Positions 51,917-52,264 of a DNA stretch of 64,000 nt are shown here, piece by piece. Both the position numbers and the translations under genes were made by a program. Source of the stretch: Escherichia coli (GTDB lineage: Bacteria; Pseudomonadota; Gammaproteobacteria; Enterobacterales; Enterobacteriaceae); assembly GCF_024700885.2 (NCBI RefSeq), contig NZ_CP117016.1; one strand, written 5' to 3'. Under the pieces are notes generated by a model. The model was not told the DNA's origin, ran no database searches, and worked only from the letters and a program-made list of their open reading frames with translations. Position 1 is the stretch's first letter. Every line of letters begins with the position of its first letter.

Positions 51917-52264
51917 ATGAAAAAACTTAATGTGTCAATTTTTTCTATTGCGGCTTGTTTTAGTCTTAATGTATTTGCTGGTGGAGGAGGATGGAATTCG
52001 GATCTTGTAGATCCGCAACAATGTGTAAAATTGTCAGGTGCACAGTATACATATAATAGCTCTTCTAATAAATGTATGCAAGGTATCAACGAAGGGAAAG
52101 TCCATGGTGTTTCATTATTTGGAACATTCTATTATGGCGATGGCAGCCAAGGGACTTTTAAAGGAAGAGTTTCCCCGGGGACAACACTGAATACAAATCA
52201 AGATATGAACAAAACTAATAAATATGGCGTGAAATATAAGGTTATTACTGAGTGGGTTAGATAA
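51917..52264 (+). CDS. Dispersin-like (Aap/CexE family) small secreted protein
   Basis: 115 aa; signal peptide followed by AGGGGWNSDLVDPQQCV.SG.QYTYNS..KCMQGINEGKV.GVS..G.FYY.DG....FKG.V.P.T..NTNQD.NKTNK.GV....TEWV matches the dispersin/CexE pattern recalled from memory, including glycine immediately after the signal peptide. Confidence 0.65.
   Translation: MKKLNVSIFSIAACFSLNVFAGGGGWNSDLVDPQQCVKLSGAQYTYNSSSNKCMQGINEGKVHGVSLFGTFYYGDGSQGTFKGRVSPGTTLNTNQDMNKTNKYGVKYKVITEWVR

What the first reader, a model, noticed from the sequence alone, without database searches (positions are those of the whole stretch)
51917..52264. Chromosomal dispersin/CexE-like gene
The 115-aa product has the signal peptide, GG(G)WN start of the mature protein and spaced Cys/aromatic pattern of the Aap/CexE family, whose members are N-acylated on the N-terminal glycine and exported by Aat systems. 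The locus is in an IS-rich chromosomal island rather than the plasmid contexts I associate with it, suggesting a distinct variant.
Basis: partly seen in the sequence, partly recalled or inferred. Interest (0 to 1): 0.6.

Follow-up and report, generated by a model that had tools for sequence, protein, structure and literature searches.

The report
Chromosomal dispersin gene, already described
This gene encodes a chromosomal relative (63% identical) of dispersin, the surface-coat protein of enteroaggregative E. coli, and sits beside its own export machinery, fimbriae and regulator; the same protein was already reported in Escherich's strain NCTC 86, so the finding is correct but not new.

Summary
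The ORF at 51917-52264 (+) is real and encodes a 115-aa protein. It matches solved dispersin (PDB 2JVU) at E=3.4e-38, aligned from Gly22, which corresponds to residue 1 of mature dispersin. It is 63% identical to Aap of EAEC 042 and 30% to CexE-alpha of ETEC. It keeps every invariant family residue (A21|G22 G23, W26, P33, C36, C53, W113). Its AF2 model retrieves only dispersin and one other entry on Aat-type lipoprotein secretion (9HHO) from the PDB.

- An intact aatPABCD operon lies 1.9 kb downstream, and AatD keeps the motifs holding the four catalytic-site residues (triad E/K/C plus the stabilising Glu).
- An AAF-like chaperone-usher operon lies directly upstream.
- An AggR/Rns-family regulator lies 10 kb downstream.
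- AggR-type promoter motifs sit 92-120 bp before all three operon starts.

The locus is chromosomal in 53 of 5426 complete E. coli genomes and on no plasmid.

The island and its substrate gene were already described in NCTC 86 (Dunne 2017). This exact protein was placed in the dispersin clade by Rivas 2020. Verdict: already known, low interest. The one new point is that the window (identical to strain MLI114 over the 18 kb compared) carries an undecayed copy of the island.

The parts
51797..51807 (+). AggR-type activator site GTTTTATTATC (WWWWWWWTATC with 1 mismatch), 120 bp before the ATG
   Evidence: Rule of Yasir 2019 (PMC6392122) applied. 8% of dinucleotide shuffles of this 200-bp region give a hit. 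Inferred, not shown to be bound.
51830..51835 (+). Candidate -10 hexamer TAGTAT, 22 bp after the activator site
   Evidence: The 22-bp spacing is the same as at the 042 aap promoter.
51906..51910 (+). Shine-Dalgarno AGGAG, 6 nt before the ATG
   Evidence: Read directly from the sequence.
51917..52264 (+). Dispersin (Aap) homologue, 115 aa. Signal peptide codons are 51917-51979. The mature 94-aa protein (51980-52261) starts GGGGWN, with MW 10.25 kDa and pI 9.2.
52280..52301 (+). 9-bp GC-rich hairpin (ACCGCCAAG-TTTT-CTTGGCGGT) 16 nt after the stop codon. There is no clean U-tract, so it is a possible weak terminator or mRNA stabiliser.
   Evidence: z = -3.97 for 52255-52330. The consensus terminator scan did not call it.
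46826..46836 (+). AggR-type site GCTTTTTTATC, then 22 bp, then TATTAT, 97 bp before the chaperone ATG
   Evidence: 2% of shuffles give a hit.
46923..51391 (+). AAF-like chaperone-usher operon in aggDCBA order: chaperone 46923-47690, usher 47709-50315, AfaD/AggB-like minor subunit 50331-50765, major pilin candidate 50876-51391
   Evidence: 64.5% and 68.5% identity to AafD and AafC, 30% to AafA. The pilin is <=32% identical to any plasmid AAF major subunit. Mature pilin pI is 9.2.
52459..54079 (.). IS481 fragment (52459-53307, - strand) and IS66 fragment (53333-54079, + strand) separating the dispersin gene from aatP
54111..54121 (+). AggR-type site AATAATTTATC, then 22 bp, then TATTCT, 92 bp before the aatP start
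   Evidence: 8% of shuffles give a hit.
54203..59135 (+). aatPABCD: aatP 54203-55345, aatA 55342-56580, aatB 56477-57301, aatC 57267-57911, aatD 57924-59135. All are full length.
   Evidence: 58, 52, 59, 71 and 51% identity to AatP, A, B, C and D of EAEC 042 over full length. AatD carries the SENVFFG, KTKLIPFFE and ICYE catalytic motifs and matches the Lnt model at E=7.5e-9.
62541..63338 (+). AraC-family regulator of the AggR/Rns/CfaD/VirF group, 265 aa, intact
   Evidence: 37% identity to AggR over residues 15-264. Plasmid relatives are <=44% identical, with CfaD at 38-39% and VirF at 30%.

Best explanation
The gene encodes a dispersin-clade member of the Aap/CexE family, the substrates of the Aat secretion system.

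Shown here:
- It has close sequence and fold identity with dispersin.
- All invariant family residues are conserved, including the Gly that follows the signal peptide.
- It is physically linked to an intact aatPABCD operon whose AatD keeps the Lnt-type catalytic residues.
- An AAF-type fimbrial operon and an AggR-family regulator lie in the same island.

Inferred from the experimentally studied homologues (Icke 2021, Belmont-Monroy 2020):
1. The precursor is exported by Sec and cut after A21.
2. AatD N-acylates Gly22.
3. AatPC, which is LolCDE- or MacB-like, together with AatB and the TolC-like AatA, moves the lipoprotein to the cell surface.
4. On the surface the basic 10-kDa protein (pI 9.2) coats the cell, so the basic fimbriae (pilin pI 9.2) can project outward rather than collapse onto LPS.

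Expression is probably driven by the island's own AggR-like activator. Promoters with the AggR architecture precede the fimbrial operon, the dispersin gene and aatP.
For: Sequence: E=3.4e-38 against 2JVU, aligned from G22 to mature residue 1. Identity is 62.9% to Aap 042 over 115/116 aa and 60-66% to 61 plasmid Aap genes.

Family alignment: A21, G22, G23, W26, P33, C36, C53, G60, G64, V65, P87, G104 and W113 are invariant across 12 members that go down to 30% identity.

Fold: the AF2 model has pLDDT >90 over residues 31-115. Foldseek against the PDB returns 2JVU (E=3e-12, TM 0.75) and 9HHO (E=9e-4), and nothing else below E=0.2.

Machinery: AatPABCD are full length and 51-71% identical to those of 042. 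AatD has the SENVFFG, KTKLIPFFE and ICYE motifs, at the same or adjacent positions as in 042 AatD. These motifs hold the four catalytic-site residues shown to be essential in PMC7943197.

Promoters: under the published rule there are only 11 hits on the + strand in 64 kb. Three of them lie 92-120 bp before the three operon starts, each with 22-bp spacing. The shuffle probabilities are 0.02, 0.08 and 0.08, with product 1.3e-4.

Charge: the mature protein has pI 9.17, against 8.98 for Aap.

Conservation: the gene region (701 bases including its flanks) is >=99% identical in 39 complete genomes, and the exact protein occurs on 875 contigs.
Against: There are no expression, acylation or secretion data for this allele.
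- The regulator is only 37% identical to AggR, so the promoter-site reading is by analogy.
- No Aar/ANR partner was found in the window or in 15 kb beyond it.
- The island is full of IS elements and holds a decayed iro cluster. In NCTC 86 the usher is split by IS3 and the regulator is frameshifted, so in some lineages the system is decaying.
- IS fragments separate the gene from aatP.
- Pfam-A as installed and NCBIfam gave no family hit.
Confidence: 0.85

Rival explanations
1. The gene is a silent relic. It is an intact-looking ORF stranded in a decaying pathogenicity island and is no longer expressed or exported, so the product has no present function.
For: The island is IS-ridden and iroN, iroE and iroC next to it are pseudogenes. 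In NCTC 86 the usher is interrupted by IS3, an ISCro1 lies between the gene and aatP, and the regulator carries a frameshift. Dunne 2017 judged the fimbrial locus non-functional in that strain.
Against: In the window every component (4 fimbrial genes, the dispersin gene, 5 aat genes and the regulator) is full length. The gene region is >=99% identical in 39 genomes, and several genomes carry the whole 18 kb as one colinear piece. The promoter-like motifs are retained right up to the IS66 fragment boundary before aatP.
Confidence: 0.12
2. The protein is a classical Lgt/Lsp lipoprotein. Residues I11-A12-A13-C14 in the signal peptide resemble a lipobox. The protein would then be cleaved before C14 and triacylated on Cys rather than N-acylated on Gly22.
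For: IAAC fits the loose lipobox pattern [LVI][ASTVI][GAS]C (sequence; pattern from my own knowledge).
Against: The 97%-identical variant P0001 has IAVC, and Val at -1 does not fit a lipobox. Aap 042 and the other family members have no Cys there. The hydrophobic core continues past C14 to F20. The A|GG junction is invariant in all 12 members.
Confidence: 0.02
3. The protein is a dispersin homologue exported by Aat, but its role is uncoupled from the neighbouring fimbriae. It could act, for example, as a general coat or colonisation factor as proposed for CexE, or as a plasminogen binder.
For: CexE acts as a coat protein and colonisation factor in ETEC and C. rodentium, which lack AAF fimbriae (PMC7344145). 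Dispersin binds plasminogen (PMC7315649 abstract). The gene stays intact in NCTC 86, where the usher is broken.
Against: The gene lies directly after the pilin gene, and both products are basic, as in the AAF/dispersin pair. Similar promoter motifs precede both units. This does not exclude an additional role.
Confidence: 0.25

Closest known systems
Dispersin Aap of EAEC 042 (pAA plasmid; PDB 2JVU)
   Same: 62.9% identical over the full length. It has the same length, the same LN(A/V)FA|GG cleavage junction, the same two Cys and C-terminal TEWV, and the same fold. It is linked to aatPABCD, AAF-type fimbriae and an AggR-family regulator, and the promoter has the same site-to-(-10) spacing of 22 bp.
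   Different: It is chromosomal rather than on an IncF pAA plasmid. About 37% of residues differ. Its regulator is only 37% identical to AggR, and its pilin is <=32% identical to any AAF major subunit. No Aar was found. The gene order is fimbriae, then aap, then aat, then regulator in one 17-kb stretch, whereas on pAA these units are scattered.
The 'Ec NCTC86' polypeptide and the ROD 17 Aat/dispersin locus of E. coli NCTC 86 (Dunne 2017; Rivas 2020)
   Same: It is the same protein: 100% identical DNA over 51700-52400, WP_021543690.1. The island is the same, at 98-99.7% identity.
   Different: In NCTC 86 the usher is split by IS3, an ISCro1 lies between the gene and aatP, and the regulator is frameshifted. 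In the window all three are intact.
CexE of ETEC H10407 and of Citrobacter rodentium
   Same: They belong to the same family: a signal peptide followed by a Gly-rich N-terminus, two Cys, a C-terminal Trp, Aat-dependent export and AraC-family control. The C. rodentium locus is also chromosomal.
   Different: Identity is only 29-30%. They fall in the CexE clade or an outlying branch rather than next to Aap.
Lol-pathway lipoproteins (Lgt/Lsp/Lnt, LolCDE)
   Same: AatD is Lnt-like with the same catalytic triad. AatC gives LolD- and MacB-type hits among many ABC-ATPase families. The AatP relation to LolC/E is taken from PMC7943197.
   Different: The acceptor is an N-terminal Gly after signal peptidase I cleavage, not a diacylglyceryl-Cys. 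Export is to the cell surface through a TolC-like duct.

Membership tests
Aap/CexE family (Aat substrates, N-terminal-glycine lipoproteins) | Significant sequence similarity to Aap and/or CexE | tested here: met
   E=3.4e-38 to dispersin 2JVU. 62.9% identity to Aap 042, E=2e-51. 30% identity to CexE-alpha, E=1e-5.
Aap/CexE family (Aat substrates, N-terminal-glycine lipoproteins) | Sec signal peptide cut by signal peptidase I, leaving an invariant Gly at +1 and a Gly/Ser-rich first five residues | tested here: met
   The N-terminus is MKK, then a hydrophobic core, then VFA|GGGGW. A21, G22 and G23 are invariant in 12 members. G22 aligns to residue 1 of the mature dispersin chain. SignalP was not run, so the site rests on hydropathy and the -3/-1 rule.
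Aap/CexE family (Aat substrates, N-terminal-glycine lipoproteins) | Two conserved Cys and a conserved C-terminal Trp | tested here: met
   C36, C53 and W113 are invariant in alignment A1.
Aap/CexE family (Aat substrates, N-terminal-glycine lipoproteins) | Beta-sandwich fold of dispersin and CexE | tested here: met
   The AF2 model has pLDDT >90 across residues 31-115. The only PDB matches at E<=1e-3 are 2JVU and 9HHO.
Aap/CexE family (Aat substrates, N-terminal-glycine lipoproteins) | Genetic linkage to a complete aatPABCD, with the AatD catalytic-site residues (E/K/C triad plus stabilising Glu) intact | tested here: met
   aatPABCD lies at 54203-59135 and each gene is full length against the 042 proteins. 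The SENVFFG, KTKLIPFFE and ICYE motifs are present. The residues are defined in PMC7943197.
Aap/CexE family (Aat substrates, N-terminal-glycine lipoproteins) | N-acylation of the N-terminal Gly by AatD | not testable with these tools
   This needs 17-ODYA labelling or mass spectrometry of the protein with and without aatD.
Aap/CexE family (Aat substrates, N-terminal-glycine lipoproteins) | Aat-dependent export to the cell surface or medium | not testable with these tools
   This needs fractionation of wild-type and aat-mutant strains.
Aap/CexE family (Aat substrates, N-terminal-glycine lipoproteins) | Control by an AggR/Rns-type AraC activator | tested here: inconclusive
   A regulator of this group lies in the island. 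AggR-architecture motifs precede all three operons, with joint shuffle probability 1.3e-4. Binding and activation were not tested, and the regulator is only 37% identical to AggR.
Typical EAEC pAA regulon (AggR, AAF/I-V, Aap, Aat, Aar on pAA) | Carried on a pAA-type virulence plasmid | tested here: not met
   All 55 places lie on chromosomes and there is no plasmid DNA match.
Typical EAEC pAA regulon (AggR, AAF/I-V, Aap, Aat, Aar on pAA) | AggR itself and one of the known AAF variants | tested here: not met
   The regulator is 37% identical to AggR. The pilin is 27-32% identical to AggA, AafA and Agg5A.
Typical EAEC pAA regulon (AggR, AAF/I-V, Aap, Aat, Aar on pAA) | Aar (ANR) anti-activator present | tested here: not met
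   tblastn with Aar 042 found nothing in the window, L001 or L005. ANRs are short and divergent, so a distant one could have been missed.

The most novel reading that the evidence does not exclude
The undecayed form of the island seen in the window (identical to MLI114 over the 18 kb compared; several other human isolates carry the 18 kb in one uninterrupted piece) may be a working chromosomal counterpart of the pAA regulon. It would comprise an uncharacterised AAF-family fimbria, its own dispersin and Aat system, and a divergent AggR-like activator. Strains carrying it could show aggregative or diffuse adherence. They would probably not react with aggR, aatA (CVD432) or aap assays built on the pAA sequences, because the proteins are only 37-71% identical and the dispersin region has no plasmid DNA match at megablast sensitivity.
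Probability: 0.3. Interest if true: 0.4.

Novelty: already known. Interest (0 to 1): 0.2.

Why it matters
The finding matters little beyond confirming the annotation. RefSeq still labels this dispersin gene, aatB and aatD as 'hypothetical protein' in the two records inspected (MLI114 and NCTC 86; other records name aatD 'acyltransferase' or 'carbon-nitrogen hydrolase family protein'). Standard EAEC markers would probably miss the locus. The published view, from the decayed NCTC 86 copy, is that the system is a colonisation factor of commensals rather than a virulence trait. An intact copy in stool isolates offers a natural strain in which to test that view. It would also allow a test of whether glycine N-acylation and Aat export work with a third, divergent substrate and AatD pair.

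Tried and rejected
- Pfam-A scan of the protein gave no family. The installed library seems to lack PF28204, which is precomputed on close relatives; I do not know its name.
- NCBIfam has no model for the substrate, AatA or the pilin, and only weak generic hits for AatP, AatB and AatD.
- The word-indexed homologue search returned only near-identical proteins. The representative search gave 12 hits, enough for a family alignment.
- I looked for the second, disrupted substrate gene that Dunne 2017 mentions downstream of aat, using tblastn. There was none in the window, the NCTC 86 locus or the MLI114 locus.
- I looked for an Aar/ANR homologue and found none.
- ARAGORN found no tRNA in the window, so the island's insertion site was not defined.
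- The consensus sigma-70 and terminator scans around the gene were at background level.
- The lipobox-like IAAC was considered and rejected (see rival explanations).
- A search for the paper behind PDB 9HHO found nothing in the held library.

Full report
**Observation.** The ORF at 51917-52264 (+) is present as stated: ATG start, 115 codons, with an AGGAG ribosome-binding site 6 nt upstream. Its product starts MKKLNVSIFSIAACFSLNVFA|GGGGWNSD. Hydropathy peaks over residues 8-20, and V-F-A satisfies the -3/-1 rule for signal peptidase I. The mature protein has 94 residues, a mass of 10.25 kDa and pI 9.17. The corresponding figures for Aap of EAEC 042 are 95 residues, 10.23 kDa and pI 8.98.

**Identity.**
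- A phmmer search of all PDB sequences gives dispersin (2JVU) at E=3.4e-38. The next hit is at E=0.15. The alignment starts exactly at G22 of the query and residue 1 of the mature dispersin chain, and runs to the C-terminus.
- Against Aap taken from the pAA plasmid of strain 042, identity is 62.9% over the full length (E=2e-51).
- A tblastn search of 72,556 plasmids finds 70 records. Sixty-one carry annotated aap at 60-66% identity, and a few carry more distant relatives at 33-50%.
- Identity to CexE-alpha of ETEC is 30%, and to the C. rodentium homologue 29% (sequences from PMC7344145 Fig. S1).
- A search of 1.84 billion representative proteins returns only 12 hits, so the family is small.
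- An alignment of the ten credible members found there, plus Aap 042 and the query, shows these invariant positions: A21, G22, G23, W26, P33, C36, C53, G60, G64, V65, P87, G104 and W113.
- An AlphaFold2 model is confident over the mature domain (block-mean pLDDT 92-97 over residues 31-115). Foldseek against the PDB retrieves 2JVU (E=3e-12, TM 0.75) and 9HHO (E=9e-4), and nothing else below E=0.2. The title of 9HHO is 'A conserved beta-sandwich fold is required for secretion of lipoproteins by a novel Type I secretion system'.
- The installed Pfam-A and NCBIfam libraries have no model that hits the protein. That is a gap in those libraries, not evidence against membership.

**Surroundings.**
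- Directly upstream is a chaperone-usher operon in aggDCBA order. It comprises a chaperone (64.5% identical to AafD), an usher (68.5% to AafC), an AfaD/AggB-like minor subunit, and a 171-aa pilin candidate. The pilin is at most 32% identical to AggA, AafA or Agg5A.
- After two IS fragments (IS481 and IS66) comes aatPABCD. Each gene is full length and 51-71% identical to its 042 counterpart.
- AatD keeps the motifs SENVFFG, KTKLIPFFE and ICYE, at the same or adjacent positions as in 042 AatD. These hold the catalytic triad Glu/Lys/Cys and the stabilising Glu, all four of which Icke et al. showed to be essential for acylating CexE (PMC7943197).
- Ten kb downstream of the dispersin gene, beyond more IS debris, is an intact 265-aa AraC-family regulator. 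It is 37% identical to AggR, 38-39% to CfaD and 30% to VirF, and at most 44% to any plasmid-borne relative.
- No Aar/ANR homologue and no second substrate copy were detected.

**Regulation (inferred).** I applied the published rule for AggR-dependent promoters. The rule is WWWWWWWTATC with at most two mismatches in the A/T tract, followed 21-23 bp later by a -10 hexamer (PMC6392122). I additionally required at least 4 of 6 matches to TATAAT, with A at position 2 and T at position 6. The whole 64-kb + strand gives 11 hits. Three of them lie 97, 120 and 92 bp before the starts of the chaperone gene, the dispersin gene and aatP, each with 22-bp spacing. Dinucleotide shuffles of the three 200-bp upstream regions give a hit in 2%, 8% and 8% of trials, for a product of 1.3e-4. 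The characterised aap promoter of 042 has the same 22-bp spacing, with its site 134 bp from the start codon. This supports a common regulon, but the activator here is divergent and nothing was tested experimentally. A 9-bp GC-rich hairpin follows the stop codon (52280-52301; z=-3.97). It lacks a U-tract.

**Mechanism.** The studied homologues were characterised in PMC7943197 and PMC7478709. By analogy the expected sequence of events is as follows:
1. Sec exports the precursor and signal peptidase I cuts after A21.
2. AatD N-acylates Gly22.
3. The protein is extracted and exported through AatPC, AatB and AatA to the cell surface.
4. There the basic protein is thought to neutralise surface charge, so that the basic fimbriae (mature pilin pI 9.2) project from the cell.

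Steps 1 to 4 are inferred. What is shown here is the conservation of every sequence feature these steps need.

**Source and distribution.**
- The 701-base region around the gene occurs in 53 of 5426 complete E. coli genomes, always on the chromosome, and in no plasmid.
- Window 46000-64000 is 100% identical to the chromosome of strain MLI114, from human stool in Mali.
- The exact protein is recorded on 875 contigs. UniProt names a near-identical variant 'Dispersin'.
- In the two RefSeq records inspected, WP_021543690.1 is labelled 'hypothetical protein'.

**Prior knowledge.**
- Dunne et al. 2017 (PMC5382810) described this locus on ROD 17 of NCTC 86. [quoted passage not shown]
- Rivas et al. 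[quoted passage not shown] Apart from a few characters that differ in the machine-read Fig. S1 text, it is the window protein, and the residue-by-residue alignment table in the same supplement (file 3) agrees with the window sequence where shown.
- Icke et al. [quoted passage not shown]

**What is slightly new.** Comparison with NCTC 86 shows that Escherich's strain carries a decayed copy: IS3 sits in the usher, ISCro1 sits between the dispersin gene and aatP, and a 1-nt frameshift disrupts the regulator. The window carries all eleven genes intact, and several other human isolates hold the 18 kb as one uninterrupted piece. Whether the intact island confers adherence has not been tested, as far as the searched library shows.

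**Verdict.** Novelty is 'already known' and interest is low (0.2).

Noticed in passing
window 46923-51391: This is an intact AAF-family chaperone-usher operon. Its major pilin candidate is only 27-32% identical to AggA, AafA or Agg5A, so it may be an unnamed AAF-type fimbrial variant. The mature pilin is basic (pI about 9.2).
   Followed up: partly
L001 (NCTC 86) 14688-18619, 22172-24787, 33336-34535 versus window 47709-50315 and 62541-63338: The NCTC 86 copy of the island is decayed. IS3 splits the usher, an ISCro1 lies between the dispersin gene and aatP, and the AraC regulator has a 1-nt frameshift near codon 100. The window copy (identical to MLI114 over the 18 kb compared) is intact.
   Followed up: yes
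window 57924-59135 and 50876-51391 (L005 27090-28136 and 19937-20392): The RefSeq start sites look too far downstream. AatD is annotated as a 348-aa 'hypothetical protein', although the 403-aa ORF aligns end to end with 042 AatD. The pilin is annotated from an internal Met, which removes most of its signal peptide.
   Followed up: partly
window 51947-51958 (residues I11-A12-A13-C14): There is a lipobox-like IAAC inside the signal peptide of the dispersin homologue. It is not conserved in the 97%-identical variant (IAVC) or in Aap 042, so it is probably a coincidence.
   Followed up: partly
window 19040-25443: A 1656-aa ORF combines a PglW/MAD6-like protein kinase region (residues about 57-460) with an SF1 helicase region (about 1050-1624). 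It overlaps the start of a 478-aa ORF that has no family hit. It looks like a phage-defence-type gene pair.
   Followed up: no
window 10294-11496: This is an integrase-domain gene (NF007246, E=3.5e-55). ARAGORN found no tRNA gene anywhere in the window, so the boundary of the mobile region is unclear.
   Followed up: no
window about 41000-46300 (L005 11053-15457): This is a decayed salmochelin cluster. iroN is truncated, iroE and iroC are frameshifted, and iroD is intact. It lies directly upstream of the fimbrial operon.
   Followed up: no
P0011 and P0006: There are weak matches, inflated by repeats, between the C36...C53-x-x-G-I-N-E-G-K-V segment and tandem Cys-containing repeats in two long proteins (E=5e-5 and 2e-6). 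From memory the P0011 repeats resemble LCCL domains. This is probably chance or a shared short motif.
   Followed up: no
window 59195-59647 (- strand) and L005 33250-44456: A group II intron maturase fragment lies just after aatD. Beyond the window end, MLI114 has an autotransporter fragment, a DarTG toxin-antitoxin pair and a type I restriction-modification system.
   Followed up: no
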